Below, piece by piece: positions 23,097 through 59,844 of a DNA stretch of 64,000 nucleotides. Both the position numbers and the translations under genes were made by a program. The notes beneath the pieces are model-generated. The model ran no database searches. It was not told the origin of the DNA and saw nothing but the letters and a program-made list of their open reading frames with translations. The stretch's first letter is position 1. Each line of letters opens with the position of its first letter. This stretch comes from a candidate division WS6 bacterium OLB20 (GTDB taxonomy: Bacteria; Patescibacteriota; Dojkabacteria; B142; OLB20): the NCBI GenBank assembly GCA_001567355.1, contig JYNZ01000005.1:67981-131980 (forward strand). Direction: 5' to 3'.

Positions 23097-23174
23097 TGGG
23101 GTGGCAGGTGGGACTTGAACCCACGGCCCCCGGTGCCACAAACCGGTGCTCTAACCAACTGAGCTACAGCCACC
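23097..23174 (-). tRNA. tRNA-His (anticodon GTG) with an encoded G-1 and an encoded 3'-CCA
   Basis: Minus-strand cloverleaf with D-arm GCTCAGTTGGTTAGAGC, anticodon loop TTGTGGC, T-arm GTGGGTTCAAGTCCCAC, discriminator C and then CCA. An extra 5' G is typical of bacterial tRNA-His. There is one U-U mismatch in the acceptor stem. Confidence 0.85.
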
Positions 23175-27928: not shown

Positions 27929-28807
27929 TTGAAACGACGAAATTATGCGACAGTCGGATTGATAGTTGTGCTGCTGGTCGTGGTAGCAGCTGCAATCTTC
28001 ATTGGAATATTTCTGAGCCAGGAACCAAGTGTCGCGCCGCAAAAGACTGACGCCCTCGTTGATTACAGCACCAGATATGGCAGCTGTTCCGGAAACTGCA
28101 ACAGCGGAGCCGAATGCAATGGCTACGGAAACCCACCGGCTGGCACAATGTTCTCCTGCTGGCTGCACAACGGTTCCTACGGTTGCTTTGCAGAAACAAC
28201 CAACTCCGGCGGCAGTCAGTGTTATCTCAGCTGTTCAAGCGGCTGGCAGCCCTGCGGCTGCGATATCGCTGCCTGTGAACAAAGCTGCAGAAATCAATAT
28301 GCCGGACAACCTGGCTATCATGAGTACACTGCGATCTGTGCAGGTTGTCAGCAGAAGTTTACCTGCAGCTGCAACATTACGGTAACCAATACACCAACAT
28401 ATACACCATCACCTACAACGCCGGTTACAAACACTCCGACAAATTCGCCAACGCCAACAAATTCGCCGACACCAACAAACACTCCGTCACAGACACCATC
28501 AAGCACACCAAGCAGTACGCCGACAGCAACCATAACAAACACGCCATCGCCAACACCATCTGTTACGACCACCATTGTTGAAACCCCTACACCGACGCCG
28601 ACAGCATCACCATCCGGCACGCTGCCACCGACAGCGCTGTTCAGCGACGAAACTGATCGCGCCCTTATCGGCCTGGTACTTATCATCGCAGGCATGACCT
28701 TCTACCTGCTGGGACTGCATAACTCCTTCGGTTTTCTTTATAAAACACGACCAGAACGCAAGGCGGAGTTTGAAGACCGGATAAACAGCTCAGGCAGTCC
28801 TGATTGA
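27929..28807 (+). CDS. Cys-rich secreted protein with a (T/S)P-repeat stalk and a C-terminal TM anchor
   Basis: An N-terminal signal anchor is followed by a 16-Cys domain. Then comes about 90 aa of TPTNSPTPTNSPTPTN low complexity. The protein ends in a C-terminal TM helix and a basic tail. Confidence 0.55.
   Translation: MKRRNYATVGLIVVLLVVVAAAIFIGIFLSQEPSVAPQKTDALVDYSTRYGSCSGNCNSGAECNGYGNPPAGTMFSCWLHNGSYGCFAETTNSGGSQCYLSCSSGWQPCGCDIAACEQSCRNQYAGQPGYHEYTAICAGCQQKFTCSCNITVTNTPTYTPSPTTPVTNTPTNSPTPTNSPTPTNTPSQTPSSTPSSTPTATITNTPSPTPSVTTTIVETPTPTPTASPSGTLPPTALFSDETDRALIGLVLIIAGMTFYLLGLHNSFGFLYKTRPERKAEFEDRINSSGSPD
28425..28500 (+). repeat. In-frame tandem nucleotide repeat encoding PTPTNSPTPTNSPTPTN
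   Basis: ccaacaaattcgccgac appears in about 3 tandem copies. Confidence 0.6.
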
Positions 28808-35624: not shown

Positions 35625-35639
35625 CTGTTTTGCCCTGAC

Positions 35640-45843: not shown

Positions 45844-47814
45844 ATGGAAAGTATCCGCAAAAATATCGAATCAGCCTCTCCGGCTGACCGTCACAGTACG
45901 GTGCTAAGCAACTGCCTTAGGCACATCCAGCTTGGTACGGGCGACATCACTATCAGGCAGGGCGCAAAGATCGGTGTCTTTCATATTGATGGTATGACCC
46001 AGACGCTGGTGCCGGAGGCAGACGGCACAGGTATCTTCGAGGCTGTGACGGACGAGAATACAGTGCGCCTGATCCGCAAGGATTCTTCAGACTACAATAC
46101 ACTCAGGATCACTGTGCCCCGTGAGCCGGATGAGCATATTGAGGGATATGCCCGACTTGAGGATGAGCCGGTATGCTACTACAACCGTGAACATGGAGGA
46201 GTGTATCAGCCGAGTCTGGAGACCTTTCTGTCAAAACGCATGGGCCTTTACGCCGGCAGGAATATTGCCTATGCCATGCATCCGCAGTTTACATCCAGCA
46301 AGGGATACAGGCTTGAGGTATACTCCGAAAAACCTGTGGTCATAAGCTACAACGATGATGCTACCGTTATCGACTGCTTTGGGCTGCCTGAAGAAATCAG
46401 GGCTTCGCGTGTTGACAGCTTCAGCCCGCCCCGGCTGCAGAACGAGTTTGTCCGCATACCCGAAGGCACCGATAATGGTGTCGCAGTGGTGATGCGAGGC
46501 GATGCGGACGAAATCAGAGAAAATATCGGCAGGCTGCTTGAAGCAGGCTGTGCTCTCGGATACGTCCAGCTTGAAAATATTTTCGGCAGCGTGTCCCACA
46601 GACTCGCCGTCTCTGATCGTGTTGTCTGGGGGAGTACGAAGATCAAACACGGCTACAAAGAGCTGATACGGGATCTGCAGGCACAGGGGATAGAAGTGAT
46701 CGGATACATCAATCCGTACATGGAGGAGGAAGCCAACCTGTTTGCGGAATTTGATCGCGAGGGATACTTTGTCAGCCACGAAGGCAGACGATTTGATACG
46801 TCACTGATTAACGAGAACAGGGTCTGCATAGTAGATCTCTTCAATCCTGCTGCCAGAAGAGCACTGATGGAACGTTACGGTGATGCATTCGCACAGCTTG
46901 GTATCAGCAGTTTCAAACTGGACTTTGGCGAGGGTCATCCGGATAAGTCCTTGCACCAGCGATATGCCGCAGAGCTTGTCCGCTTTGGTCATGATATTCA
47001 GAAGTACATCTCGGAGCAGACGGCCGGGAGGGGTTTCTTTTACTCACGGACGGCAACCGGTGCAAATGTCTCTGCCACATATGGTCAGGACCCGTTTCTG
47101 ATCTGGGGCGGCGATTATACAGCGAATTTCCGCAATGACTCCTGGACAGCGGGGATTTTGCGCAGTGTTGATGCTCAATCCATCGGTCTGCCGGGTTACT
47201 TTGAGATCGGTGGGTTTTATAATTTCGGCTGGCTCTATAATAATCCGGTATTTATGCGGGCATGTATCGAGGCTGGAATGTTTAATCTGTTTGTCAGATC
47301 TCATGTCGGAGCAGACCACCGCTGGCCGCTGAACACGCATGTCTATTCGGAGAATGTTATTGACCTCTTTGCTGTCTGGAGCCGCGTGCGGTTTGGAACA
47401 CTCAAGCCGTTTTTTGATGAGCAGACACGACATTGGAACAAAACGGGTCAGCCGATCTGGAAAAAGTTCTATCCGCGACACCACGGAACACCCGGCATCA
47501 CTGCAAAGTCAACCCGAAACCAGTTTTACATAGGAGCGGAAAATGACATTCTGCTTGCCATACCGAGCAGGGACCGCCCGTTCAGCAAACGGTACAAAGT
47601 CTGCCTGCCGCCAGACGGAAGCTATACCGATCTGATTACCGGAGAGCATATCGAAACGGGTACAGACCCGATCCTGGTGCAGCAATACGTCCGGGGAGGA
47701 GCTGCGATCTATTATGACACCCGGAGCCGCTTTGCAGATCTCTTTGCAGCGGCCCACAGTGAGCTTGAGACAAGCGGTGTATACAAGATCTCAAAGTCTT
47801 CTCAGGAGCCATAA
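45844..47814 (+). CDS. Glycoside hydrolase, GH31-like (alpha-glucosidase/xylosidase family)
   Basis: Catalytic-region motifs KLDFGE and WGGDYTANF resemble the GH31 WxDMNE / WxGDN blocks. The start is moved to the internal Met to avoid overlap with the upstream region. Confidence 0.5.
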   Translation: MESIRKNIESASPADRHSTVLSNCLRHIQLGTGDITIRQGAKIGVFHIDGMTQTLVPEADGTGIFEAVTDENTVRLIRKDSSDYNTLRITVPREPDEHIEGYARLEDEPVCYYNREHGGVYQPSLETFLSKRMGLYAGRNIAYAMHPQFTSSKGYRLEVYSEKPVVISYNDDATVIDCFGLPEEIRASRVDSFSPPRLQNEFVRIPEGTDNGVAVVMRGDADEIRENIGRLLEAGCALGYVQLENIFGSVSHRLAVSDRVVWGSTKIKHGYKELIRDLQAQGIEVIGYINPYMEEEANLFAEFDREGYFVSHEGRRFDTSLINENRVCIVDLFNPAARRALMERYGDAFAQLGISSFKLDFGEGHPDKSLHQRYAAELVRFGHDIQKYISEQTAGRGFFYSRTATGANVSATYGQDPFLIWGGDYTANFRNDSWTAGILRSVDAQSIGLPGYFEIGGFYNFGWLYNNPVFMRACIEAGMFNLFVRSHVGADHRWPLNTHVYSENVIDLFAVWSRVRFGTLKPFFDEQTRHWNKTGQPIWKKFYPRHHGTPGITAKSTRNQFYIGAENDILLAIPSRDRPFSKRYKVCLPPDGSYTDLITGEHIETGTDPILVQQYVRGGAAIYYDTRSRFADLFAAAHSELETSGVYKISKSSQEP

Positions 47815-47881
47815 CACCTTCTTGTGGTCATAATCAGTACATGCTAGATTAATACCATCTAACACTAAACTGGTTTTACTG

Positions 47882-50800
47882 ATGGTACGAGTTGCCTATT
47901 CAGGTAAGGATATTCCTCATATGCGGAATAGATTTGCCCGGTTGCCACACAAGGCACGAGCTGTATTCAGACGTCCTGCCTTCCGGGCAGTTTCGGTTTT
48001 CAGTCTCATACTTTTTCTGCTTGCACCTGTATTTCTCCCTCTTTTAGTCAGTGCTGCGCCGGTTCCATCACTTGTTGTATCACTGCCTGCAGAGACACTT
48101 ATCGGGGAGGATGTATCATTCAGTATCTCGTTTCAGAATACCGGGACAAATGAAGGTTACGGACCATTTATTGACCTGATTTTTCCCTTCACCGGTGCGG
48201 ACGGTATCTACCCGTTCAGCCCAGGTCTGGAGGAAGACGGCCTTGATTTTGTATCAGCTTCATTTTTAAGTACGCCGCTGACGACCTCAGTGTTTCAGTT
48301 TACCGACACCGAGCCCTGCGTAGACCATCCCTATGCAGTAGACACAAGCGGTCAGCCCATCTCCATCTGCGGCACACCTGGTGACAAACTGGTTGTGCTT
48401 CAGCTTCCGTTCGGCTCATTTGTGCCGGGACAGCCTGATGTCGATGTCAGCGTTAATGCCACCCTTCACAACTGGGCAGATGCCGGAACTGATCTGACAG
48501 TGCAGGCGCGTGGCGGTTTTCAATTTGGTGCAACACCGGCAAATGACTTTACTACCGATCCCTCAGTACTAAACACATTTTCAGATTACGACACGACACC
48601 GACCGTATTCAGCATTCGCAAAAATTATGTCGGGCCTGAGGATGAGACAGCTTCGGGACAGAACTTCCCGCGCGAGTTCAACCTCTTTGTTGACATTGCT
48701 GACAGCCTCACACTGACTGATTTTGTGATGAACGATAATCTTGATAACCGGGTTGTCTACGATGGATTCGGCAGCAGCAGTCCCTCCGCCACAATAACTG
48801 ACACTCCTGGTACGCCCGGTGCCCAGAACCCGCCAGCTAACAATCTCACACTTGAATGGGCGTCACTTACCGGTACTACGTCGGGCACAGATGCAAGTGC
48901 CTCATTTGACTTTTATGTTGACCGGCTGGATGCTAATGCCGCCAGCGTAATCAATCCAACTGCGGGCGGTTGTGTAAACATTCCAAACGATATTTCCGCC
49001 ACAGCGGACTGGGATCCTGATGATCCGAGAGACAGCATCACACCCGTCAGCTCTGATGTGACACCTACAGATGAAACGTTTGAAGCATGCAGCATGGTAA
49101 TTCAGAAGTCAGTAGCCATGGCAAGCGATACCGGACCTGCCGGTTACACGCCGGGCGACATCGTGCAGTACACACTTAATTTCCAGGTCTCTGACTACTT
49201 TGCGCTGAGTGATGTCATCATCAACGATCTCATGTCAGACGGTCAGCGGTTTGATACAGGCTTCACTCCGACACTCAGCTTTACCTCACATGGTGTCAGC
49301 ACTTCAGGAGCGATGGATCCGTCAAGCTTCACTGTAACCGATCACTTTACTGGTGGAGCGCCTGCTGTCCCGCCGATTGAAGGTACACAGGAGGTAAGTT
49401 TTGACATCTCGGGAGAACTGTCGACACGCAGCTATATTTCGGGCAGTGACCTGATAGGAGGATGCGTTCCGTTTGGCGGAGGTGCAATCGACTGCACAGG
49501 GTCAAGTGCAACGACAGGAACGCTTGTCTTCAGGGCAGAGATCCAGGAACTCTTTACAGACGAATATGCACCGCAGAACGATAATGTTGATCAGGGAGAC
49601 ATTCTTACCAACTCAGTCGAGATAAGCGGTCAGATTCTTGTTAATTCGACCCTTGCAGGTACGGGCAATTACGTGAGCGAAGGCAGCGGAGCAACATTCA
49701 GCATCCTCAATGGCGCGCTTGCAGTCAAAGACATCTATGCGATCAATGGAATCACAGGATCCTACTCCACACCGGCAATTGGTCCGGGTGATACAGTCAC
49801 ATATCGTATCCGTTTTGAGATGCCTACATCCGATGTCGAGGATCTTGTGATTACCGACTATCTGCCACTTCCGGTTTTTGAGGCGACAGAAATCACAACC
49901 TTTGATCCGACGGTTAATGCAACCGTGCCACCCGCAGGTACCGTTAAATTCGGAGCTAATGACACATTCTTTGCCCTGACAGGAATCACCCCGATACTGA
50001 CAAATGACGGCACCTCAAATACATTCACACTGGATTACGGCAGCAATCAGGAGGTGACAGAGGTAAGCTCGGTTATCGAACTCTACGTAACCGTCACGGC
50101 CTCAGATGAACCGTTTGCAGATGGCCTGTTTCTGACCAACCAGGCTCAGTCAACGCAGGGAACAACCAACAGTACAACCGAGACTGCCACGCAGATTGTC
50201 CAGGTGGAGCTGACACTGCCGAATCTGCAAATCACAAAGGGAATTATCGCCACGGACGGTCCGGCAGGAGTATTTGACCCTGCCCCCCCTGCTCCGGAAT
50301 CGGTCACAGCACCTGATACTGCGGGATTCCGGTTCGGAGGGACGGTAAGCTCATCAGATCTTGATGCAAATCCTATGGACAGTAATCTGAGTGATGTTGA
50401 CTCGGATGATCTGGTCAGTTTTGTTATCGTTGTTGAAAACACCGGTCAGGGTGTCAACGGCGCATTTGACGTCGGCATCTCAGACACACTGCCGGCTGAT
50501 TTTGTCATCCCTGTAGCCGGTAACGGTCTGAATCTGAGAGTAACCGATGGTGCCGGCAATCCCCTCTCATGGACTGCCGCTGATGGTACTGATACTGTCC
50601 CGCTGTTTGAAGACGGGATTATTCTTGATGACGGTGTGACTGGCGCGCTTGATGCATATGACACCTCATCCGGCGGCAATATAGCGCTTATCACCTACGA
50701 TCTGCAGATTGTTAATGATGTTGAACCGGAAAGCCTGATCGAAAACACTGCCACTCTGTTTCAGTATGCAAGTACCGAAGGCGGCCCCGACTTTGTCTCA

Positions 50801-53800
50801 ATCAACCAGACGGATGCTGCCGAAGTCAGTGGCACAAAAGCACCTGACATCTCAAAATCATATACCACCACAAACCATGCCGGCTCGACCGATCCGGATG
50901 TGGTCGTTGGCGAGCAGATCACCTATGAGGTCGTTCTCGATATCCCTGAGGGCGAAATGACTGGCACAGACCTTACCGATACACTCGACAGCGGTCTTGC
51001 CCTGCTCGGTATCGACTCAATTGTTGCATCCAGTGGCGACGTGACGACAAGCCATGCCGGCGGTTTTGCAGGTGTTGCTGCTGACATAGTTGTAACAAAC
51101 AGCGGCAGAACAATCGAGTTTCCGTTTGATACGATCACTAATGTAAATACCGATGACGGAGTGACCGAGACTATCACCGTGACCTATACAGTGGTTGTGC
51201 TCAACAACAACCAGATCTATCGTGATCGGGCACGCAATAACAGCGCAGTATTCACCTATCAGAACGGTACCGTTTCCGACAGCGCCAGCAATGTCAATGT
51301 TGCCGAGCCGACACTCCAGATTACCAAAACACCTTCTCCGACAAGTGCAGATGCAGGCGATACGGTCACGTTTACTCTGGTGATCAGCCATACCGGGGCC
51401 AGCGATGCCAATGCCTACGATGTTCAGCTGGAAGATATCATCCCGACGGGTATGACCTATGTTGCGGCAAGCGTCAGCCATGATGCAGGCCTTGCTCCTG
51501 ATAACGGTCCTTCCGAGTCAGGCGGTACAATCAGTGCAACCTGGAACACATTTCCGGATGACGGATCCACGAGCACGATCAGTTTTGATGTTACCATTGA
51601 CAGTACCGTGCCTCTGGGCGGAACAGTCACCAATACTGCAGGGATCGAGTGGACAAGTCTGCCAGGAGATATAACAGCCGATCAGTCTACCTATGCATCA
51701 CCCTCAACAGAGCGTACCGGCGATACGGGCAACCCCGGAGGCTCCGAAAATGACTACACCACCTCTGCAAACGGTCCGGTTTCCATTCTGTCCGTTAACC
51801 CGGTCAAGACCATAGCTGCAACGTCTGAGGCATCCACGACCGCCCTGAGCGGGATCGAACGCGTAACGGTCGGAGAGATTGTCCGTTACCGGATGGTCAT
51901 ACGAGTAGCAGAGTCAACTGCGACAAACCTGCAGTTACGTGACAACCTGTCCACAGGCATGCAGTTTATCGATGATGGTACAGCCATGGTGGCATTTGTC
52001 AGCAACGATGCCGGAATAACTTCATCAACACTGATACCCGGCAGCATCGGCTGCGACGGGGGCAGCAATCCCGATATAGCGTTCACTGGTAATCAGACAA
52101 CTGTATCGGGGATAACTCCGGAATGTCCGCTGCCTGACAGTGCAGTCAGTAACTCAGCCGGTTCCGATGTTGATACATACGCCTCCGGCACTGATATTTA
52201 CTTCAAGCTTGGCAATGTCGTCAATGATGACCGCGACGGCGATGACGAGCTGATCGTTGTCGAATTCAACGCACTCGTCAGAAACGAAGCGAGTAATGTC
52301 AGCGCGACAAACAGGGACAACACATTTAACGTATTTGAAAACGGCTCGAGTGTTGCAGTATCAACAACAGGCAACTCGAGCAGAGTACGGATTGCAGAAC
52401 CTGTTGTTTCTGTTGCCAAAGCGGTGACTGTTGCGCCAACGGATGCCGGTGACGCGCTTCAGTACACTATTACGGTCACCAATACGGATACCAGTGTCAA
52501 CGGCGCATCAGCCTTTGACTTCACTGTAACCGACACAGTCCCTGCTGAGGCAGCTGTCCAATCGGTATCTGTCAGCACGCCAAACGGGTATACAGATAAT
52601 TCTTCAGGGCAGAACGTCAGTGTCGTGCTGGATACTCTCGGCAAGGGTCAGGCGGCAACCATCACAATTAATACATTTGTCTCATCCGTAGTTCAACCCG
52701 AAGAGATTATCAGTAATTCAGCGTCTGCAGTCTGGACCAGCCTGCCGGGAACAAACGGTACGACCGGCAACCCCACAGGGTCGGCAAACAGCGGTTCTGC
52801 AGGCACAGCGACTGGTGAACGCACAGGACAGGATGGTGTCGGCCTGCTTAATGACTACACTGCTTCGAGTACTGCAAACACATCAGTCGGCTCGGTAATA
52901 ATCGATAAACTGTCACCTTCTCCGACGAGCTATCCGATCGGTTCATCAGTTGACTACGATATCCGGGTGACCCTGCCCGAAGGAACTGTCAGCAATGTCG
53001 TTGTAACCGATTTTGTCCCTGCCGGAATGGATTACACCGGGTACCAGGTCATCACTACCTCGGGTACAAATCTGCCCCAGACATTTGCAGGCAGTGTTCC
53101 TGCACCGTCAGTATCCGGGGGTACGGGAAGCGGCTCGGATGTATCATTTACATTCTCAAGTATCTCAACAACGGCCGATAATGATACCGGCAACAACAGT
53201 TTTCTGGTGCGGGTCACACTTGTCATACTTAACGAACTGACAACACAGCGAGGCGATACACTTGGTAATACCGCGGGACTTGTATTTGATAATCCGAACG
53301 GCCCTGGCACATTGGCCGAAAACGATCTTGTCCCGGAAAATATCACCGTACTTGAGCCGATTCTGCAGCTGACAAAGACTGCTTCTTCAGTCCCGGCTGA
53401 GGTGGAGGCAGGAACAACGGTCGAGTATGAGATCGAGGTGCAGCATCACGCAAACAGCAACAGTACAGCACATGATGTAGTCATCAATGACCCTGCACAA
53501 AGCAATCTGACGATCACAGGTGTATCGGTCAATGTAACCGGGTCAATCAGTACACCAAGTTCCACCTTTACCGGCAATACGGTTCGTGTTCCGGCAAGCG
53601 GAAGCTTTGACCTGCCAGATGATGGAACAATCGTAACGGTAACAGTGACAGCGACCGTCAGTGCAGGAGCAAGCGAGACGATTACAAACATTGCCGATAC
53701 GACATGGGCTTCAACAGATCTACCAAACACCAATGCGCGCACTGACGGCAGTGGTGAGTATGACCTTGCCGAGTCAGGCGCGACAGGACTTAACGACTAC

Positions 53801-56272
53801 GAGACAAGTGACGACGACATGCTGGTCACGACATCTGACCCTACGGCAGTCAAATCTATAGCTCAGACCAGCCTGGCAACAACCTCGGATGCGTCCGATC
53901 CGGTTGAGCTTACGCCGGGAGAAGAGGTTACGTTTTTCATTCTGATCGGAATCGGTGAAGGTACGACCACATCACTGCAGGTGCTTGACGATCTGGCCCC
54001 GAATATTGAGTATGTCTCACACGCTGTAGTGACAAATGCTGCGGCAAGCTATGGCAATATGGCCCAGAATTTCAGCGGTACAATCCCCGCTCCATCCTGC
54101 ACCGGCTGTACCCCCGGATCTGACGGAGCTGACCTGACATTTGACTTCAGCAATATCGTAAATACGGTTGACGGCAACGGACTTAATGATTTCTTCGGTC
54201 TGCAGATCGTTGCCAGACTTACAGACAACCCGATCAACGACGGTCTTCCGTCGGGTACGACTGATTTCAGCAACAGCGCAACGGTGCAGGCAAATGTGCC
54301 GACCGGACCCGTGATCGATGCAGGCACAGTCGACATGACCGTTGTGGAGCCGGATGTAACTATCACTAAGGAGTTTGACACAGGGACTGATCCAGATCAG
54401 GCATCACCATACGATATTGCCACGGTTACTATAGTAATCGGCAATGACGGCAGTACCGATGCCTACGATATTACGTGGGAGGACGATCTGGAGAGCATAC
54501 AGGCAGGAGTGTTTAACTATCAGAACGATCTCGGAGTGGTCTGTACTGGCGGCGTACCTGTTACTATGACTGTCGATGATACAGCCGATCCTCTCCTGAC
54601 CGGTCAGCTTGGCAGGCTGCCCGCAGGCGAGTCATGCACGGTAACCTTCAGTGTTGAGCTGGACGGTACTATTGACCAGGGCACCTATCCGACAGTCACT
54701 AACGAGACTGCTGTAACGTCATTTGATAACCATCCTTCGTCTCCGGCAGAGCAACGAAGCCAGGGTCCTGTAACAGCATCTGACACTATTACGGTTGCCG
54801 TTGTGGATCTCGAGATTGTAAAAGATGACAGCGATACTGAGGTTGATCCGGGTGATACAGCAATCTATACCCTGTCTGTCACCAACAACGGTCTTGCTGA
54901 TGCGACAGGTATCACTGTAACCGAAACCGTGCCGGCTAACACACAGTTTGACGCTTCTAACAGCACTGTGGGCTGGACCTGTACCCCGGACAGTGCACCG
55001 GGTGCTGCATGTACGTTTGACCTGAGCACCCATCTTGGATCAGCACTGGCTGGTAACGGCGGCACAACCGACATCTATTTTGCCCTCACGGTTGATAACC
55101 CCGTCGCACCGGGCACAGTCAGCATCGCAAATACGGCATCTGTTGAGGATGATGGCGCAAGCGGCGTAGATCCGACACCCGGTGATAATACAGATACAGA
55201 TACAAATGCTATGGGGAACGTGGTTGACCTGATTATTGTCAAGACAGCAGCAGACACTGAGACAACATTCAATACCGACCTGGTCTTCACTCTGGAATAT
55301 GAAAACGTGGGAACTGTTGACGCGGAGAATGTGGAAATCACAGAAACAGTGCCGACTGACAGCGAATTCAATCCGACCCTCAGCGCTCCCGGCTGGTCAT
55401 GCACGCCAGATAACCTGGCAGGCAGCACCTGTACACTGGCGCTCGGGACAGTCGCCGAGAATACCTCAGGCAGTGTTGAGTTTGCGGTCACAACCGGAGA
55501 CTATGCACTTGGAGTTTACAGCGAGATAGAAAACACCGCGTCTATTGCTGACGACGGCACGTACGGGCCGGACAGCAATCCATCTGATAATACAAGTACT
55601 GCGACAGTTCCTGTCTTGTACACCAATGTGTTTGACCCGCCGTCCGCGCAGAAGACATTCAATGACGACGAGCTGCCGGAGATGGAATGGGTCATGGTCT
55701 GGATCAATGACGGCAACACGGTTGCTCTAAACGTCAGGATTGTGGATCCGGTGCCGGCCGGAACAACATACATTCCAGGAAGCTTTGTCTGCGAGCCGCG
55801 GGGTGTATCTGCCACAACACTATGCGAATATGATTCCCTTAACAATCAGGTCGTCTGGGAGGGTTCAATCGGTCCGGACACGGGAGGCACAACAGAAGAC
55901 GACAGCGACAATGAGGTGGTGCTGACCTTTAAGACAAGTGTACCCGCCGAGATCGAGATGCTTGAAAACCAGGCAATGGTTTACTGGGATGACAATATGG
56001 ATGGAAACGTAGATGATGATATTCTCGCAGGGCAGACCGCAGGTATGTCAAATGACCCCGATACGACAGAAGCCGGTGACCCGACCATCTGGGAGCGTCC
56101 GGAGCTGGCTGCAACAGGCGCCGTCCTGACAGTACCGGCGTTACTTGCAACATTGATTATAGCTGCAGTTATTGCAGTCAATATTCAGCAGCAGAGGGGT
56201 ATAACCCTGCATGGATTTATACACCTCAGAAAACACTCAGGGGTAGCTGATCGGATACGATTCAGGCGCTGA
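47882..56272 (+). CDS. Giant (2796 aa) surface protein made of DUF11 'conserved repeat domain' modules, with a signal peptide and a C-terminal LAATG sorting signal plus TM and basic tail
   Basis: Many TIGR01451-like repeats (…DTAIYTLSVTNNGLADATGITVTETVP…, …DTVTFTLVISHTGASDANAYDVQLEDIIP…). The C-terminus is …PELAATGAVLTVPALLATLIIAAVIAVNIQQQRG. Confidence 0.8.
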   Translation: MVRVAYSGKDIPHMRNRFARLPHKARAVFRRPAFRAVSVFSLILFLLAPVFLPLLVSAAPVPSLVVSLPAETLIGEDVSFSISFQNTGTNEGYGPFIDLIFPFTGADGIYPFSPGLEEDGLDFVSASFLSTPLTTSVFQFTDTEPCVDHPYAVDTSGQPISICGTPGDKLVVLQLPFGSFVPGQPDVDVSVNATLHNWADAGTDLTVQARGGFQFGATPANDFTTDPSVLNTFSDYDTTPTVFSIRKNYVGPEDETASGQNFPREFNLFVDIADSLTLTDFVMNDNLDNRVVYDGFGSSSPSATITDTPGTPGAQNPPANNLTLEWASLTGTTSGTDASASFDFYVDRLDANAASVINPTAGGCVNIPNDISATADWDPDDPRDSITPVSSDVTPTDETFEACSMVIQKSVAMASDTGPAGYTPGDIVQYTLNFQVSDYFALSDVIINDLMSDGQRFDTGFTPTLSFTSHGVSTSGAMDPSSFTVTDHFTGGAPAVPPIEGTQEVSFDISGELSTRSYISGSDLIGGCVPFGGGAIDCTGSSATTGTLVFRAEIQELFTDEYAPQNDNVDQGDILTNSVEISGQILVNSTLAGTGNYVSEGSGATFSILNGALAVKDIYAINGITGSYSTPAIGPGDTVTYRIRFEMPTSDVEDLVITDYLPLPVFEATEITTFDPTVNATVPPAGTVKFGANDTFFALTGITPILTNDGTSNTFTLDYGSNQEVTEVSSVIELYVTVTASDEPFADGLFLTNQAQSTQGTTNSTTETATQIVQVELTLPNLQITKGIIATDGPAGVFDPAPPAPESVTAPDTAGFRFGGTVSSSDLDANPMDSNLSDVDSDDLVSFVIVVENTGQGVNGAFDVGISDTLPADFVIPVAGNGLNLRVTDGAGNPLSWTAADGTDTVPLFEDGIILDDGVTGALDAYDTSSGGNIALITYDLQIVNDVEPESLIENTATLFQYASTEGGPDFVSINQTDAAEVSGTKAPDISKSYTTTNHAGSTDPDVVVGEQITYEVVLDIPEGEMTGTDLTDTLDSGLALLGIDSIVASSGDVTTSHAGGFAGVAADIVVTNSGRTIEFPFDTITNVNTDDGVTETITVTYTVVVLNNNQIYRDRARNNSAVFTYQNGTVSDSASNVNVAEPTLQITKTPSPTSADAGDTVTFTLVISHTGASDANAYDVQLEDIIPTGMTYVAASVSHDAGLAPDNGPSESGGTISATWNTFPDDGSTSTISFDVTIDSTVPLGGTVTNTAGIEWTSLPGDITADQSTYASPSTERTGDTGNPGGSENDYTTSANGPVSILSVNPVKTIAATSEASTTALSGIERVTVGEIVRYRMVIRVAESTATNLQLRDNLSTGMQFIDDGTAMVAFVSNDAGITSSTLIPGSIGCDGGSNPDIAFTGNQTTVSGITPECPLPDSAVSNSAGSDVDTYASGTDIYFKLGNVVNDDRDGDDELIVVEFNALVRNEASNVSATNRDNTFNVFENGSSVAVSTTGNSSRVRIAEPVVSVAKAVTVAPTDAGDALQYTITVTNTDTSVNGASAFDFTVTDTVPAEAAVQSVSVSTPNGYTDNSSGQNVSVVLDTLGKGQAATITINTFVSSVVQPEEIISNSASAVWTSLPGTNGTTGNPTGSANSGSAGTATGERTGQDGVGLLNDYTASSTANTSVGSVIIDKLSPSPTSYPIGSSVDYDIRVTLPEGTVSNVVVTDFVPAGMDYTGYQVITTSGTNLPQTFAGSVPAPSVSGGTGSGSDVSFTFSSISTTADNDTGNNSFLVRVTLVILNELTTQRGDTLGNTAGLVFDNPNGPGTLAENDLVPENITVLEPILQLTKTASSVPAEVEAGTTVEYEIEVQHHANSNSTAHDVVINDPAQSNLTITGVSVNVTGSISTPSSTFTGNTVRVPASGSFDLPDDGTIVTVTVTATVSAGASETITNIADTTWASTDLPNTNARTDGSGEYDLAESGATGLNDYETSDDDMLVTTSDPTAVKSIAQTSLATTSDASDPVELTPGEEVTFFILIGIGEGTTTSLQVLDDLAPNIEYVSHAVVTNAAASYGNMAQNFSGTIPAPSCTGCTPGSDGADLTFDFSNIVNTVDGNGLNDFFGLQIVARLTDNPINDGLPSGTTDFSNSATVQANVPTGPVIDAGTVDMTVVEPDVTITKEFDTGTDPDQASPYDIATVTIVIGNDGSTDAYDITWEDDLESIQAGVFNYQNDLGVVCTGGVPVTMTVDDTADPLLTGQLGRLPAGESCTVTFSVELDGTIDQGTYPTVTNETAVTSFDNHPSSPAEQRSQGPVTASDTITVAVVDLEIVKDDSDTEVDPGDTAIYTLSVTNNGLADATGITVTETVPANTQFDASNSTVGWTCTPDSAPGAACTFDLSTHLGSALAGNGGTTDIYFALTVDNPVAPGTVSIANTASVEDDGASGVDPTPGDNTDTDTNAMGNVVDLIIVKTAADTETTFNTDLVFTLEYENVGTVDAENVEITETVPTDSEFNPTLSAPGWSCTPDNLAGSTCTLALGTVAENTSGSVEFAVTTGDYALGVYSEIENTASIADDGTYGPDSNPSDNTSTATVPVLYTNVFDPPSAQKTFNDDELPEMEWVMVWINDGNTVALNVRIVDPVPAGTTYIPGSFVCEPRGVSATTLCEYDSLNNQVVWEGSIGPDTGGTTEDDSDNEVVLTFKTSVPAEIEMLENQAMVYWDDNMDGNVDDDILAGQTAGMSNDPDTTEAGDPTIWERPELAATGAVLTVPALLATLIIAAVIAVNIQQQRGITLHGFIHLRKHSGVADRIRFRR

Positions 56273-56364
56273 CAGCTCTGTCAGAAAGTTATCGCGATAA
56301 TTGTTCTGCACCCAGACAAGCAGCACGATCGCAGCAGCAAACAATCCCAGCAGTACAAGTGTCT

Positions 56365-56970
56365 TCAGCCAGTCTGCAGCGGTCGCACGCTCACCGGCTC
56401 TGCCTTCACGACGAATCTCCGGTCTGATGTCCATAGCGGAACACAGGTATAAAGTGTAAGAATATTGCGCTCTGATGGCTCTTCAATGTACTTTGCATCG
56501 GCAGCCACCTCCTCGGTCACACTCACGCGGTACTCGTACTCTGTCTCGTTCCAGAGGACGAAAATCGTATCCCCCTCCTTCAGTCTGGGTAGATGATAGA
56601 ACGAACGCTGCTCCTGTCCATACAGGTAACGGTGGGCAACAAGCACTGTATTGCCTCCCGCTTCAGGGTCTGATGTACCAGGTCTGCGCCAGATGCCGTT
56701 GTCCAGCGTTGCAAATGCAGTGCCTTCCCAGATGCGTCCTGACACACCTATGCGCGGTATTATCAGTCGATTTCCCGTCTCCGGTTCGGAAGGAACCGGC
56801 ACAGCTAGTGCGCGTGCCTGATCAAGCAGCCCCTCCTGCAGTTCTGGTGCAAGTTCCCGGTATGTCAGCTCAGGGATGAGGGGCAGAATTATCACATACA
56901 GCGCGATCGACACTGTCATTACTGACAGGAGAAACTGTATCCGCTGCAAGAAAGTTCTGCTCATGGACAT
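56365..56970 (-). CDS. Sortase transpeptidase (class E-like), membrane-anchored
   Basis: N-terminal TM, catalytic His in NTVLVAHRY, TLxTC motif (LTLYTCVP) and a downstream Arg (RRFVVKA). It sits adjacent to the LAATG substrate. Confidence 0.8.
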   Translation of the reverse strand: MSMSRTFLQRIQFLLSVMTVSIALYVIILPLIPELTYRELAPELQEGLLDQARALAVPVPSEPETGNRLIIPRIGVSGRIWEGTAFATLDNGIWRRPGTSDPEAGGNTVLVAHRYLYGQEQRSFYHLPRLKEGDTIFVLWNETEYEYRVSVTEEVAADAKYIEEPSERNILTLYTCVPLWTSDRRFVVKAEPVSVRPLQTG

Positions 56971-56983
56971 ATTCTAGCAGGTG

Positions 56984-57487
56984 CTAGGCGGCTTGGGACA
57001 TCAGGTTGCTGATGAAGCGCTTGACCTCAACAGGATCATCGATTCCGGTCATGCTTAACTCTACAGAAGCGGAACCCGATGTATTGAGATGCAGTGTTCC
57101 GGAGTTGAACAGAAACCGTTCGGCAAATGTCTGCTCAAGAACAATGTCCGTAATCTGTTCGTATGATACAGAGATGAACACGTTCCCGAGTATTCCGCGC
57201 TGTGATATGACACGCCGGTTCGTGATTGCATAGTTGTAGGCGCGCGGAAGATAGGCAAAATTGTACAGGAGGATGTATGTGTAGAGTACTGCGACCGCGA
57301 GCGTGCCGGATATCGCAATAACCGGCTGATAGAGTATCCCCAGAGCATAGTAGGACATTCCAAGCCAGATAATGAAGCAGAACACTCCGCCGGCAGCAAC
57401 ACCAAATGACCTTGTCCTGATACTGACGGTAAGCAGCATCAGAATCTTCTCATTGTCTGCCAGATGGGCGCTGAGGGAGTGCTTCAT
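56984..57487 (-). CDS. bPH_2 (YdbS-like) membrane protein
   Basis: Two TM helices are followed by …ITNRRVISQRGILGNVFISVSYEQITDI…. Confidence 0.6.
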   Translation of the reverse strand: MKHSLSAHLADNEKILMLLTVSIRTRSFGVAAGGVFCFIIWLGMSYYALGILYQPVIAISGTLAVAVLYTYILLYNFAYLPRAYNYAITNRRVISQRGILGNVFISVSYEQITDIVLEQTFAERFLFNSGTLHLNTSGSASVELSMTGIDDPVEVKRFISNLMSQAA

Positions 57488-57630
57488 TCCGGCACAGTAT
57501 AGCAGTTCCGCTGAAAAAACTATATCGCCTCCGGGCTTGTTACGATTAGTGATTCGAGTCTGATGCGATTAGCGCTCTTGAAAATTGCCTGGTGTTTTGC
57601 CATACTGCTCTTGTATTTACACATCTCCCT

Positions 57631-58110
57631 ATGCGACTCAAAATAGTCTCTCTGCTCCTGTTCGTGACTATATTCGTAACAGCCTGTACACCTGCTCTGC
57701 CTGAGGATACCAATTCTGATCCGTTCAGCACCGAAAACGGCAGCGGACAGACCGGTACCCCGACCGCAGAACCCCTGACCGAAGAGGAACGCCAGCAGGC
57801 GGAAGAACGAAACCAGGAACGTGACAACGAGGCACAGCAGATCGCGGAGGCGGTAAACGAGTTTACCTCGAAAGGCGGGCAGCTGCAGGAAGCAGAACTG
57901 ATTCCCTCCTGCGATGACGGTGTTACCGGTATCGGTACGATCAAAGGACTTATCAGTCTTGATAATCTTATCCCGCAGTATCTGAGTGAGATACCGACAG
58001 ACCCGCGCACAGGTTCTGCCAACGACAGCGGTTATGCCCTCTGCCGCTCAGGCGATGACATCGTCGTCACGGCGCCCAACGCAGAACTGGATCGCGAGAT
58101 CAGGAAGTAG
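57631..58110 (+). CDS. Lipoprotein with a pseudopilin (GspG-like) C-terminal motif
   Basis: Lipobox VTAC after the signal peptide (start moved to MRLKIVSLLL). The C-terminus QYLSEIPTDPRTG…GYALCRSGDDIVVTAPNAELD resembles the GspG YLxxLPxDPWG…Y…GDD…D block. Confidence 0.45.
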   Translation: MRLKIVSLLLFVTIFVTACTPALPEDTNSDPFSTENGSGQTGTPTAEPLTEEERQQAEERNQERDNEAQQIAEAVNEFTSKGGQLQEAELIPSCDDGVTGIGTIKGLISLDNLIPQYLSEIPTDPRTGSANDSGYALCRSGDDIVVTAPNAELDREIRK

Positions 58111-58905
58111 TTTTACCCTGCTCATCATTTTTACTGCTACCATTCTGCTGCTGTAGCTGTTTCTTCAGCTGGATCATTTTAAGTTCACGACCGATCAGCG
58201 TCTTATTCATCGACTCCAGATCCTTGTTTACATCTTCAAGCTTGTAGACTGACTCACTCAGACGCTTTTTTAGTCGATGTCAGTTCTTCAAGCTGCGAGC
58301 GCAGCTGTGCGTTTTTTAGCATCGATCTCTGCCAGGTGCTTCCCTATCACAGAACGGCTGGCGTCTGCGGCAGACTGAAACAGCCATATCATTACAAACA
58401 CAAATGACAGTGTCAGAACAAACATGAAGTACTCAAACTCACTGTACAGGAAAGTAAATGATGCAGTTGTCCTGGCCAGCAGAAAGAAAACAAATGTGGT
58501 CAGGACAAAGAACGCATGGAGATAAAACCCGAGATGCCTGCCGACCAGAAACACTGTGATAGGCGGCAGAACATAACACCACAGGAGTCCTGTTTCGTAA
58601 AACCCGCCTGAGATGAAGTTATGCAGACAGATTACAAATAACGGAAGCACGCCGATCGTCGCCGCAGGTTGCATCCGCTTGGTGCTTAAGCCTGTCAGCA
58701 TTGAAAACAGGATAATCGCAGCGAGGAGAAGCTCGAGTGCAGCAATTGGGTAGTCGGCGATCGAAAGGTTGATAAGAGTGTAGGCAATGAATACGACAAA
58801 GCCGATACTACCGAATACGATCAGAAAGCGCACGCGGGTCGTCTCCTCTTCTGTTGATGCCCGGGGCTTAAAGATATCAGTGAAGTTTTTCAGCAGTCGG
58901 TTCAT
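58101..58905 (-). CDS. Membrane sensor-like protein (5-6 TM) with a C-terminal coiled-coil tail homologous to that of 25855..27339, interrupted by two homopolymer (T6/A6) frameshifts
   Basis: The 205-aa ORF (58288..58905) ends at …EIDAKKRTAALAA*. Removing one A at 58304..58309 and one at 58267..58272 gives …EIDAKNAQLRSQLEELTSTKKRLSESVYKLEDVNKDLESMNKTLIGRELKMIQLKKQLQQQNGSSKNDEQGKTTS*. Confidence 0.5.
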
Positions 58906-59514: not shown

Positions 59515-59844
59515 ATGAAGTACATTCTCATCACCATGACCCTCGTGATCGCTCTTACAGCATGCACACCCGCTCCTCAGAACAGCCCGTCAGCAGACAG
59601 ACAGATCAGCCGCTCTGAGCTTGCTCTGCACAACACTGCAGATGACTGCTGGCTTGCAATTGACGGCAGAGTCTATGACGTTACTTCCTACGTCGTGCGA
59701 CATCCTGGCGGCGCCGAACAGATTACCAGAGGTTGCGGGCAGGATGCCACACAGCTGTTTGCAACCCAGGGCGGCCAGGGCAGTCACTCTGCAAATGCGG
59801 TCAGCATCCGGGATTCATTTATTATTGGAGTGCTTGCCGATTAG
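59515..59844 (+). CDS. Cytochrome b5-like heme-binding domain lipoprotein
   Basis: Lipobox LTAC, then the cyt-b5 core HNTADDCWLAIDGRVYDVTSYVVRHPGG with the two His ligand regions. Confidence 0.7.
   Translation: MKYILITMTLVIALTACTPAPQNSPSADRQISRSELALHNTADDCWLAIDGRVYDVTSYVVRHPGGAEQITRGCGQDATQLFATQGGQGSHSANAVSIRDSFIIGVLAD

What the first reader, a model, noticed from the sequence alone, without database searches (positions are those of the whole stretch)
47882..56970. Giant DUF11-repeat surface protein with an LAxTG signal, paired with a class-E-like sortase
The 2796-aa ORF is built from ≥15 DUF11/TIGR01451 'conserved repeat' modules. It ends in PELAATG plus a hydrophobic helix and an RG tail. 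This is a cell-wall sorting signal of the LAxTG type (as used by class E sortases), not the common LPxTG. Immediately downstream on the opposite strand is a 201-aa sortase with His, TLxTC and Arg. It is followed by a bPH_2 membrane protein and a lipoprotein with a pseudopilin-like motif. Together this looks like a dedicated sortase and substrate locus for a huge adhesin-like protein. No other LAxTG or LPxTG substrate is visible in the window.
Basis: partly seen in the sequence, partly recalled or inferred. Interest (0 to 1): 0.55.

Follow-up and report, generated by a model that had tools for sequence, protein, structure and literature searches.

The report
Giant adhesin with its own sortase
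A tiny-genome candidate-phyla-radiation bacterium (WS6/Dojkabacteria) encodes a 2796-residue stalk-like surface adhesin next to the enzyme that most likely fastens it covalently to the cell wall; this is a familiar Gram-positive arrangement, but the enzyme belongs to an unclassified lineage.

Summary
ORF 47882-56272 (+) encodes a 2796-aa secreted protein. It has about 15-16 CLIPPER (DUF11)-type Ig-like modules and ends in LAATG, a 22-residue hydrophobic helix and a basic tail. A 201-aa sortase (His113, TLYTC176, Arg185) lies convergent, 92 nt away.

The window comes from candidate division WS6 bacterium OLB20. The reading as a dedicated sortase-substrate pair is strongly supported:
- All seven loci holding an orthologue with this kind of C-terminus also carry a sortase of the same clade next to it, in three different gene arrangements.
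- One relative (P0301) fuses substrate and sortase in frame.
- 56 of the 120 best homologues, named Chloroflexi where a source names them, carry a sortase domain directly after LPxTG.

The "class-E-like" label is not supported. The enzyme reaches no curated class threshold and scores nearer classes C and D. It lacks the class E tyrosine and the long class E loops.

LAxTG is not conserved. Orthologues have LSPTG, LAVTG, LLPTG, LPAAG and LVNTS, so the shared core is L-x-x-T/A-G/S. The bPH_2 and lipoprotein genes are conserved only in the closest relative.

Verdict: a sortase-anchored fibrillar adhesin, a known kind, served by an uncharacterised CPR sortase clade. Moderate interest.

The parts
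47882..56272 (+). Gene for the 2796-aa CLIPPER/DUF11 fibrillar adhesin (GenBank KXK26078.1, annotated 'hypothetical protein')
   Evidence: ORF. Pfam DUF11 8.9e-57 and TIGR01451 1.2e-53. Exact match to KXK26078.1 of WS6 OLB20. 718 homologues at E<=1e-10.
47882..48055 (+). N-terminal signal peptide region (residues 1-58): Arg/Lys-rich n-region, hydrophobic core AVSVFSLILFLLAPVFLPLLVSA, then AAP. An alternative start is Met14.
   Evidence: Read from the translation. The same hydrophobic core followed by A-A-P is seen in homologues P0053, P0054, P0073 and P0125. Inferred; no signal-peptide predictor was run.
48056..48610 (+). N-terminal 'head' region (residues 59-243). No Pfam family. Conserved in Chloroflexi and CPR homologues. 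Candidate ligand-binding end.
   Evidence: No Pfam hit (protein 9). Only a 36-residue fragment matches the self-profile. Conserved motifs GYGPFIDL and LPFGSFVPGQP are visible.
48611..56023 (+). Stalk of about 15 Ig-like modules (residues 244-2714). In the centre, four repeats of a longer module followed by a canonical CLIPPER module.
   Evidence: Self-profile modules. Fifteen of the 24 lysines sit on the first strand of a module, with a K...D-x-[LIVF]-P...N-[TSQ]-A pattern. K9, D45 and N111 are invariant in 27 homologous copies of module 1141-1275. The AF2 model has pLDDT 91.9 and its best PDB match is the CLIPPER domain 9IFR.
56105..56119 (+). Sorting pentapeptide LAATG (residues 2742-2746), predicted to be cut between Thr and Gly
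   Evidence: Aligned motifs in orthologues are LSPTG, LAVTG, LLPTG, LPAAG and LVNTS.
56120..56269 (+). Stop-transfer helix (residues 2747-2768) and 28-residue basic cytoplasmic tail, with the motif ADRIRFRR shared by the closest orthologues
   Evidence: Tail motif S-x-[DE]-R-[IV]-x-F-R is seen in L001, L006 and P0052.
56365..56970 (-). Membrane sortase, 201 aa. N-terminal TM helix (about residues 12-34), helical linker, catalytic domain 68-197 with His113 (56632-56634), Cys176 (56443-56445) and Arg185 (56416-56418).
   Evidence: PF04203 5.5e-23 and TIGR01076 62.6 bits against a cut-off of 39.35. Invariant H, TLYTC and R. AF2 model pLDDT 89.6 with a sortase fold, E about 1e-12 to sortase structures. 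The GenBank start (184 aa) is probably too short, because homologues align from residue 1-3.
56984..57487 (-). bPH_2 membrane protein, 167 aa, 13 nt upstream of the sortase on the same strand. Possible accessory, not a conserved part.
   Evidence: PF03703 3.2e-13. The same bPH_2 -> sortase -> <- giant order is found in L001 only.
27929..28807 (+). Possible second substrate. A 292-aa Cys-rich protein with a Pro/Thr-rich stalk, ending in TLPPTALFSDETDR + TM + charged tail.
   Evidence: The same C-terminal module sits on an unrelated 572-aa protein in L006. Only these two copies occur in all the sequence held. No link to the sortase has been tested.

Best explanation
The window comes from a CPR bacterium, candidate division WS6 (Dojkabacteria) OLB20. 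The 8.4-kb gene encodes a fibrillar adhesin.

Proposed architecture:
- A Sec signal peptide.
- A conserved N-terminal head of unknown specificity.
- A stalk of about 15 CLIPPER-type Ig-like modules, most of which probably carry an internal Lys-Asn isopeptide bond.

Proposed mechanism:
1. After export, the protein is held in the membrane by its C-terminal helix.
2. The neighbouring type II membrane sortase uses Cys176, helped by His113 and Arg185, to cut between Thr2745 and Gly2746 and forms a thioester with the adhesin.
3. The adhesin is then passed to an amine of the wall precursor, so the stalk becomes covalently fixed to peptidoglycan with its head pointing outward.

The sortase belongs to a clade found in CPR bacteria that fits none of the classes A-F. 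That clade usually sits beside one large substrate and accepts Ala, Pro, Val, Ser or Leu at the second motif position.

Shown: the sequence features, the folds, the conserved pairing and the fusions. Inferred: the cleavage site, the acceptor (lipid II or peptidoglycan), isopeptide bond formation and the role in attachment (plausibly to a host cell, since cultivated CPR bacteria are episymbionts).
For: Identity of the organism and proteins.

Sorting signal and sortase catalytic residues.

Folds:
- Sortase model pLDDT 89.6, matching sortase structures at E about 1e-12.
- Module model pLDDT 91.9, with the CLIPPER domain 9IFR as best match.
- Lys/Asp/Asn triad invariant in 27 homologous module copies.
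- 15 of 24 lysines at the triad position.

Conserved pairing:
- The window, L001, L006, L032, L086, L087 and L088 all place a sortase of the same clade (38-55% identical) next to the giant orthologue. The arrangements are convergent or tandem, upstream or downstream.
- Across 86 loci of the clade, 36 have an ORF with L-x-x-T/S-G/S/A/N + TM + basic tail within 1.5 kb. The density is about ten times that of ORFs further away.

Fusions:
- P0301 joins ...ELAKTG + TM + basic loop + TM + a sortase of this clade in one frame, preserving the topology.
- 56 of the 120 best homologues of the giant carry a sortase domain directly after LP[ADEQ]TG.

Context:
- A related locus encodes MurG beside the pair.
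- The window encodes thioredoxin/DsbD-type proteins that fit the nine close Cys pairs of the adhesin.
- Sortases are reported in more than half of CPR genomes (PMC6744442).
- DUF11/CLIPPER is a stalk domain of fibrillar adhesins (PMC12617251).
Against: - No experiment exists for any CPR sortase. The acceptor is unknown and no peptidoglycan gene lies in this window.
- The TIGR01167 LPXTG-anchor model did not report the C-terminus at E<=0.01.
- The cytoplasmic tail is unusually long and carries a conserved motif, which hints at a function beyond retention.
- The nearest solved sortases by sequence are pilus-assembling class C enzymes.
- The Chloroflexi fused sortase domains have no membrane anchor, so in that branch the acceptor may not be lipid II.
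- Half of the clade's loci showed no signal-bearing neighbour under my criteria.
Confidence: 0.62

Rival explanations
1. The sortase joins adhesin molecules to each other or to another protein, as class C sortases do in pilus assembly. The product would be a covalent fibre rather than a wall-anchored monomer.
For: - The best sequence matches among solved structures and curated models are class C sortases.
- NCBI names several homologues 'isopeptide-forming domain-containing fimbrial protein'.
- The Chloroflexi homologues carry a sortase domain with no membrane anchor directly after LPxTG, which suits protein-to-protein ligation better than transfer to lipid II.
Against: - There is no YPKN-type pilin motif in the 2796 residues.
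- Only 9-10 lysines lie outside the predicted isopeptide positions.
- The sortase has no lid motif and no C-terminal membrane helix.
- There is a single substrate gene, with no separate tip, shaft or base pilins. All class C scores are far below threshold (65 against 160 bits).
Confidence: 0.12
2. The sortase processes the adhesin but passes it to a non-peptidoglycan acceptor (S-layer, glycolipid or water). The adhesin would then be lipid- or S-layer-linked, or shed from the cell.
For: - The CPR envelope is poorly known and no acceptor can be read from the window.
- The motif is unusually variable at positions 2, 4 and 5 across orthologues (LPAAG, LVNTS).
- The tail is long and conserved, which could mean the cleaved C-peptide has its own role.
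Against: - The classical tripartite signal plus a membrane-tethered sortase is the arrangement used for wall anchoring in every characterised case (background knowledge; PMC5148588).
- MurG lies next to the pair in L086.
Confidence: 0.15
3. The adjacency is incidental. The adhesin stays anchored by its C-terminal helix alone, and the sortase serves other proteins elsewhere in the genome.
For: - The rest of the genome could not be scanned.
- A second candidate signal (LPPTA) lies 27 kb away.
- Some CPR genomes hold two sortases of this clade (two loci each from the same assemblies, L011/L029, L014/L058 and L010/L085).
Against: - Seven of seven conserved pairings despite rearrangement.
- An in-frame fusion of substrate and sortase, and 56 fused homologues.
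- The L, T/A and G/S positions of the motif are kept at the same distance from the helix in orthologues only 40-66% identical.
Confidence: 0.05
4. One reading: a class E sortase with LAxTG specificity, as in Actinobacteria.
For: - The substrate here has LAATG. Ala is the commonest residue at position 2 among neighbours of this clade (16 of 34).
- NCBI's pipeline labels one clade member 'class E sortase' (P0040).
Against: - The class E model scores 63 bits against a cut-off of 160. For five other clade members the best-scoring class changes between C, E and the generic sortase model.
- Class E structures score 47-55 bits against 81 bits for classes C and D.
- No Tyr follows beta3 in any of 31 members, and the loops are 11 and 13 residues against 16 and 26 in SrtE1.
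- Position 2 is A, S, V, L or P among orthologues.
Confidence: 0.06

Closest known systems
Class E sortases and LAXTG substrates of Actinobacteria (Streptomyces coelicolor SrtE1/SrtE2 with chaplins; PDB 5CUW)
   Same: Type II membrane sortase with an N-terminal helix. Substrate with Ala instead of Pro at the second motif position. His/Cys/Arg catalytic set with nine residues between Cys and Arg.
   Different: - Scores far below the class E threshold (63 against 160 bits).
- Arg96 stands where class E has the conserved Tyr.
- The beta3/beta4 and beta6/beta7 loops are 11 and 13 residues against 16 and 26.
- The second motif position varies among orthologues.
- CPR, not Actinobacteria. One neighbouring giant substrate rather than a housekeeping role.
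Class D sortases (Clostridium perfringens SrtD, PDB 4D70; Bacillus anthracis SrtC/SrtD, PDB 2LN7)
   Same: Best-scoring non-pilus class for the clade profile (80.8 and 68.4 bits). Similar length with no insertions. N-terminal anchor only. In Bacillus, class D serves a small dedicated set of substrates.
   Different: Below the class D thresholds (58-59 bits against 140-165). Substrates here are not LPNTA or LPQTGS.
Class C pilus sortases (for example Enterococcus Ebp, Actinomyces SrtC2, GBS SrtC1)
   Same: Highest sequence scores. The gene lies next to an isopeptide-domain surface protein.
   Different: No lid, no C-terminal helix, no pilin motif in the substrate and no multi-pilin operon.
CLIPPER (DUF11) / CLIPPER_2 fibrillar adhesins (PMC12617251; PDB 9IFR)
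   Same: Tandem CnaA-like Ig modules with a Lys/Asp/Asn triad. Two module types alternate. The architecture is signal peptide + stalk + C-terminal sorting signal.
   Different: The solved example is from a Gram-negative adhesin. Here the host is a CPR bacterium with a roughly 1-Mb genome class (1.17 Mb for the related complete genome), and the anchor is an L-x-x-T-G signal with its own sortase.
Dedicated sortase-substrate pairs (Staphylococcus aureus SrtB-IsdC; Bacillus anthracis SrtC-BasH/BasI); recalled from background knowledge
   Same: One sortase encoded beside the one or few proteins that it anchors, with a non-canonical motif.
   Different: Different sortase classes and motifs (NPQTN, LPNTA). 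Those substrates are small.
Chloroflexi giant CLIPPER proteins with a C-terminal sortase domain
   Same: 35-43% identical to the window protein over most of its length, with the same head and stalk. Sortase function is tied to the same protein family.
   Different: The sortase is in cis, directly after LP[ADEQ]TG, with no membrane helix. It belongs to another sortase lineage (only 31 bits to the WS6 enzyme).

Membership tests
Sortase superfamily (Pfam PF04203 / TIGR01076) | Profile match above the curated threshold | tested here: met
   PF04203 81.5 bits against 26.6. TIGR01076 62.6 bits against 39.35.
Sortase superfamily (Pfam PF04203 / TIGR01076) | Catalytic His, TLxTC Cys and Arg | tested here: met
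   His113, TLYTC with Cys176, and Arg185. All are invariant in 43 clade members and in the 7 sortases next to giant orthologues.
Sortase superfamily (Pfam PF04203 / TIGR01076) | Eight-stranded beta-barrel sortase fold | tested here: met
   AF2 model pLDDT 89.6. Foldseek E about 1e-12 to sortases of classes A, C, D and E.
Sortase superfamily (Pfam PF04203 / TIGR01076) | Transpeptidase activity on its sorting motif | not testable with these tools
   Needs an enzyme assay.
Class E sortase | NCBIfam NF033747 score at or above the cut-off (160 bits) | tested here: not met
   63.1 bits. Five other clade members score 58-68 bits.
Class E sortase | Conserved Tyr at the start of the beta3/beta4 loop (Tyr229 of SrtE1) | tested here: not met
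   Strand beta3 of the model is residues 93-95 and the next residue is Arg96. No Tyr occurs in this loop in 31 clade members. The definition is taken from PMC5148588. The equivalence rests on secondary-structure position, not on a residue-level structural alignment.
Class E sortase | Long beta3/beta4 (16-residue) and beta6/beta7 (26-residue) loops | tested here: not met
   The loops are 11 and 13 residues in the model. Class E chains are 13-14 residues longer than the clade profile over the same span, whereas class C and D chains are within 1 residue.
Class E sortase | Substrates carry LAXTG | tested here: inconclusive
   LAATG here. Ala is at position 2 in 16 of 34 neighbours of the clade, with Pro 7, Val 5 and others 6. 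Orthologues of this protein have A, S, A, V, L, L, P.
Class C (pilus) sortase | NF033745 at or above 160 bits; lid over the active site; C-terminal membrane helix; substrate with a pilin-motif lysine | tested here: not met
   65.5 bits. The protein ends 16 residues after Arg185 with no hydrophobic stretch, and no DP[FWY] lid motif lies upstream of the catalytic domain. The substrate has no YPK motif.
Class D sortase | NF033746 / NF058671 at or above 165 / 140 bits | tested here: not met
   57.8 and 58.9 bits. Even so, C. perfringens SrtD is the joint best PDB match of the clade profile.
Cell-wall sorting signal (LPXTG type) | Pentapeptide, then a hydrophobic helix, then a positively charged tail at the extreme C-terminus, together with an N-terminal signal peptide | tested here: met
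   LAATG + 22 hydrophobic residues + a tail with 6 Arg/Lys. N-terminal hydrophobic core followed by AAP.
Cell-wall sorting signal (LPXTG type) | Pro at position 2 / match to the curated LPXTG-anchor model (TIGR01167) | tested here: not met
   Position 2 is Ala. NCBIfam reported only TIGR01451 for this protein at E<=0.01.
Cell-wall sorting signal (LPXTG type) | Motif conserved in orthologues | tested here: met
   The same position holds LSPTG (L001), LAVTG (L006, P0052), LLPTG (P0053, P0056), LPAAG (P0054) and LVNTS (L032). Leu is always kept, T/A and G/S are nearly always kept, and positions 2 and 3 are free.
Cell-wall sorting signal (LPXTG type) | Covalent linkage of the Thr to peptidoglycan | not testable with these tools
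   Needs muropeptide mass spectrometry.
CLIPPER (DUF11, PF01345) fibrillar adhesin | Profile match above threshold, in tandem copies | tested here: met
   190.8 bits against 24.6 with 5 stretches. TIGR01451 gives 7 stretches. The self-profile gives 15 modules.
CLIPPER (DUF11, PF01345) fibrillar adhesin | CnaA-like Ig fold as in 9IFR | tested here: met
   Model of residues 1141-1275 has pLDDT 91.9. The top PDB match is 9IFR, E 8.9e-6, TM 0.58-0.63.
CLIPPER (DUF11, PF01345) fibrillar adhesin | Lys/Asp/Asn isopeptide triad | tested here: met
   K1149, D1185 and N1251 are invariant in 27 homologous copies. The same pattern occurs in most modules. Bond formation itself is not testable here.
CLIPPER (DUF11, PF01345) fibrillar adhesin | Adhesive function | not testable with these tools
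   No ligand-binding domain was recognised in the head region.

The most novel reading that the evidence does not exclude
CPR bacteria may carry a seventh, uncharacterised sortase class. Its features would be a short-looped enzyme, Arg where class E has Tyr, and tolerance at motif positions 2 and 3. It would operate as a portable 'one giant adhesin, one sortase' module.

In Dojkabacteria the cargo would be the cell's main host-attachment fibre. The same adhesin family in Chloroflexi has gone one step further and carries its sortase in cis with no membrane anchor, that is, a self-ligating adhesin. The 35-43% identity over the full length between CPR and Chloroflexi proteins would then reflect gene exchange between episymbiont and potential host lineages sharing the same bioreactor and sediment habitats.
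Probability: 0.25. Interest if true: 0.65.

Novelty: new variant of a known kind. Interest (0 to 1): 0.42.

Why it matters
Cultivated CPR bacteria live attached to other microbes, yet the molecules that hold them there are mostly unknown. An 8.4-kb gene is a large investment for a bacterium of this group; the related complete Dojkabacteria genome is only 1.17 Mb.

Showing that the gene encodes an isopeptide-reinforced stalk, covalently anchored by its own sortase, would give a concrete and testable candidate for the attachment organelle.

The sortase clade has 626 clusters at 50% identity at E<=1e-30 and falls outside the six curated classes. Its apparent tolerance at the second motif position could interest people who use sortases as ligation tools.

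The substrate-sortase fusions offer a natural experiment on how sortases find their substrates.

The overall logic (signal peptide, stalk, L-x-x-T-G signal, neighbouring sortase) is textbook Gram-positive biology, and sortases were already known to be common in CPR. A specialist would therefore find this expected rather than surprising.

Tried and rejected
1. A homology search with the last 215 residues found nothing at E<=0.001, probably a limit of the word index. The full-length query worked.
2. Foldseek of the sortase model against the PDB cannot separate classes. Classes A, C, D and E all score E 1e-12 to 1e-11.
3. I looked for residues in the beta2-beta4 and beta6/beta7 regions that co-vary with the neighbour's second motif residue. 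None were found; the loops are nearly constant whatever the motif.
4. Are bPH_2 and the lipoprotein conserved partners? Both were found only in L001, so I rejected them as core parts.
5. Promoter and terminator scans of 47400-58400 gave no more sites than shuffled sequence, and no convincing terminator lies in the 92-nt convergent gap.
6. Rfam and tRNA scans found only tRNA-His at 23097-23173, which is irrelevant to the locus.
7. There are no peptidoglycan synthesis genes in the window, so the acceptor could not be addressed.
8. The library search found no paper that analyses CPR sorting motifs or the Chloroflexi LPxTG-sortase fusions. Only the general presence of sortases in CPR is reported.
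Curated HMM scores and PDB profile scores were used instead.

Full report
**What is in the sequence**

The ORF 47882..56272 (+) is open for 2796 codons.

- Its product starts with an Arg/Lys-rich stretch and a hydrophobic core (AVSVFSLILFLLAPVFLPLLVSA) followed by AAP. Homologues share this arrangement, which reads as a signal peptide.
- It ends with ...WERPE-LAATG-AVLTVPALLATLIIAAVIAVNI-QQQRGITLHGFIHLRKHSGVADRIRFRR.
- The protein is very acidic and Thr/Val/Ser/Asp/Gly-rich: 371 Asp+Glu against 78 Lys+Arg.
- It has 18 Cys in nine close pairs and no YPK pilin motif.

Ninety-two nucleotides downstream, on the other strand, lies ORF 56365..56970. It encodes a 201-aa sortase (PF04203, 5.5e-23) with an N-terminal membrane helix, His113, TLYTC176 and Arg185.

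A bPH_2 membrane protein gene lies 13 nt upstream of the sortase on the same strand. Beyond it, a divergently oriented ORF has a lipobox-like FVTAC but matches no family.

A scan of all ORFs of the window for a motif + helix + basic tail finds the giant as the only canonical case.

**Where it comes from**

The sortase is identical to a protein of 'candidate division WS6 bacterium OLB20'. The giant is GenBank KXK26078.1 of the same assembly, annotated 'hypothetical protein'.

The host is therefore a CPR/Patescibacteria bacterium (Dojkabacteria). This fits the many ORFs in the window with no Pfam family.

**The giant protein**

- Pfam DUF11 passes threshold for five stretches and TIGR01451 for seven. 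Four more modules are sub-threshold and several are not recognised at all.
- A profile iterated on the protein itself joins 14 full modules and one fragment, with E from 1e-17 to 1e-36. A further module is visible at about 2159-2305.
- In the centre, four longer modules (starting at 994, 1316, 1671 and 1997) alternate with canonical ones (1144, 1508, 1827 and about 2159).
- DUF11 has recently been renamed CLIPPER. It has been shown to be a CnaA-like domain with an internal Lys-Asn isopeptide bond catalysed by Asp. [quoted passage not shown]
- Consistent with this, 15 of the 24 lysines of the protein sit on the first strand of a module, followed by D-x-[LIVF]-P and N-[TSQ]-A motifs at the expected spacing.
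- In an alignment of 27 homologous copies of module 1141-1275, the invariant residues include exactly K9, D45 and N111.
- The AlphaFold model of that module is confident (pLDDT 91.9). Its best PDB match is the CLIPPER domain 9IFR (E 8.9e-6).
- The first 180 mature residues match no family but are conserved in homologues. They are the obvious candidate for the binding end.

**The sortase**

The AlphaFold model (pLDDT 89.6) is a sortase barrel preceded by a long helix. Foldseek matches sortases of classes A, C, D and E about equally.

Curated class models do not accept it:

- Class C scores 65.5 bits, class E 63.1, class D 57.8 and the LPxTATN-specific class D model 58.9, against cut-offs of 140-165. 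Only the generic sortase model passes.
- Five other members of the clade behave the same way. Their best-scoring model changes between class C, class E and the generic sortase model.
- A profile of 43 clade members scores class C and Clostridium perfringens SrtD structures at 81 bits and Bacillus anthracis SrtD at 68. Thermobifida and Streptomyces class E enzymes score 47-55, and class A enzymes 48-58.

The published class E hallmarks are a conserved Tyr immediately after strand beta3, a 16-residue beta3/beta4 loop and a 26-residue beta6/beta7 loop (PMC5148588). Here the residue after beta3 is Arg96 and the loops are 11 and 13 residues. None of 31 clade members has a Tyr in that loop, and the loop lengths are fixed.

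There is no class C lid and no C-terminal helix. The enzyme therefore belongs to a separate clade:

- 314 relatives among species-representative genomes. Most of the 80 loci listed carry CPR/Patescibacteria names, a few are labelled only 'bacterium', 'uncultured bacterium' or 'uncultured Gammaproteobacteria bacterium', and the other 234 were not shown.
- 626 clusters at 50% identity at E<=1e-30 in a 1.8-billion-protein library.

That sortases are common in CPR was already reported (PMC6744442).

**Is the pair functional?**

Three independent lines say yes.

1. Conserved neighbourhood. Every locus I could obtain with an orthologue of the giant that ends in a membrane helix also has a sortase of this clade next to it.
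   - The window and L001 are convergent, with bPH_2 upstream.
   - L006 (complete Dojkabacteria genome CP129475.1), L032 and L086 are also convergent.
   - In L087 and L088 the sortase lies upstream on the same strand.
   - Sources. The seven sortases are 38-55% identical.
2. The clade as a whole. In 36 of 86 loci, an ORF ending in L-x-x-T/S-G/S/A/N + helix + basic tail lies within 1.5 kb of the sortase. That is about ten times the density seen further away. These neighbours are often large proteins of 600-2800 aa.
3. Fusions.
   - P0301 (2568 aa) reads ...ELAKTG, helix, short basic loop, second helix, then a sortase domain of this clade, all in one frame. This is the topology expected if a substrate gene and a downstream sortase gene were joined.
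   - Of the 120 best homologues of the giant, 56 carry a sortase domain directly after LP[ADEQ]TG.
   - That fused domain belongs to another sortase lineage (31 bits to the WS6 enzyme). The association of this adhesin family with a sortase has therefore arisen more than once.

**The motif**

The aligned position in orthologues reads LAATG (window), LSPTG (L001), LAVTG (L006, P0052), LLPTG (P0053, P0056), LPAAG (P0054) and LVNTS (L032).

Across 34 sortase-neighbour pairs of the clade, the second position is Ala 16, Pro 7, Val 5, Leu 2, and Ser, Thr, Gln and Glu once each. The signal is thus L-x-x-T/A-G/S. It has an Ala bias but no Ala requirement, unlike the roughly 90% Pro of known signals (PMC5148588) and unlike the class E rule.

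**Mechanism proposed**

1. Sec export.
2. Retention by the C-terminal helix and tail.
3. Attack of Cys176 on the Thr2745-Gly2746 bond.
4. Transfer of the adhesin to a wall-precursor amine.
5. Display of a stalk of about 15 isopeptide-locked modules with the head outward.

The first four steps are inferred from the universal sortase mechanism. The acceptor is unknown. No peptidoglycan genes lie in the window, though MurG sits beside the pair in L086. A role in attachment to a host cell is plausible for a CPR bacterium but untested.

**Rivals considered**

The rivals are fibre polymerisation, transfer to a non-wall acceptor or shedding, and incidental adjacency. They are weighed in the dedicated fields. 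None is excluded experimentally. Incidental adjacency is made unlikely by the conserved pairing and the fusions.

**What is not part of it**

The bPH_2 gene and the lipoprotein-like gene accompany the pair only in the closest relative, L001. The MASE6-like membrane protein has a homologue 9 kb from the sortase in L006. The flanking glucose/sorbosone dehydrogenase and GH31 genes show no link.

**Verdict**

The 'class E' and 'LAxTG' specifics are not.

The system is a known kind, a sortase-anchored fibrillar adhesin, in a new variant: an unclassified CPR sortase clade, a relaxed motif and a CLIPPER giant as cargo. Interest is moderate.

The most unexpected thing met on the way lies outside the window: the cis-fused, anchorless sortase domains of the Chloroflexi homologues.

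Noticed in passing
window 27929-28807 (+); L006 2076-3794 (-): A 292-aa protein (N-terminal helix, Cys-rich domain, Pro/Thr stalk) ends in SGTLPPTALFSDETDR + TM + charged tail. An otherwise unrelated 572-aa protein of another Dojkabacteria genome ends in SDTLPPTALISDSVDR + TM. The similarity is confined to this tail (BLASTP 2e-7). This looks like a second, LPxTA-like C-terminal sorting module.
   Followed up: partly
P0073, P0075, P0125 and 53 other homologues; not in the window: Giant CLIPPER proteins, named Chloroflexi where a source names them, end in LP[ADEQ]TG followed at once by a sortase domain. There is no membrane helix between the motif and the domain or after it. This suggests a secreted adhesin carrying its own sortase in cis. 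No paper on this was found in the library.
   Followed up: partly
P0301 (2568 aa); not in the window: An in-frame fusion of a giant adhesin (…ELAKTG + TM + basic loop) with a second TM and a CPR-clade sortase domain. It is either a true substrate-sortase fusion or a lost stop codon between adjacent genes.
   Followed up: partly
window 56186-56269 (+): The cytoplasmic tail of the sorting signal is long (28 aa) and carries a motif kept in the closest orthologues (ADRIRFRR / SERVRFRRD / SERISFRS). The cleaved C-peptide, or the tail itself, may have a role beyond retention.
   Followed up: no
window 43408-44097 (+): A 229-aa protein with a signal peptide, a TIMP/NTR-like domain (PF00965, 29.2 bits against a cut-off of 23.1) and a C-terminal helix ending in KGKK. 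A metalloproteinase-inhibitor-like fold on the surface of a CPR bacterium is unusual.
   Followed up: no
window 17253-21060 (-): Two ORFs (205 aa with a signal peptide; 1116 aa with no Pfam hit) overlap at a poly-Gly-coding stretch. They are probably one secreted protein of about 1270 aa, split by a frameshift or a sequencing error.
   Followed up: no
window 23222-24364 (-) and 34980-36203 (-): A thioredoxin-like CxxC domain fused to a multi-helix membrane domain, and separately a thioredoxin + DsbD_2/CcdA pair. This is extracytoplasmic disulfide machinery that fits the nine Cys pairs of the adhesin and the Cys-rich protein at 27929.
   Followed up: no
window 9498-11836 (-): An MBOAT (DltB/AlgI-like) acyltransferase followed by a weak DUF1574/DltD-like protein. 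This suggests O-acylation of a wall polymer.
   Followed up: no
window 56920-56970 (-): The public annotation starts the sortase at Met18 (184 aa). Homologues align from residues 1-3 of the 201-aa ORF, so the longer start is more likely.
   Followed up: yes
window 59515-59844 (+): A cytochrome b5-like haem-binding domain protein (PF00173, 5e-21). This is uncommon in bacteria with such reduced metabolism.
   Followed up: no
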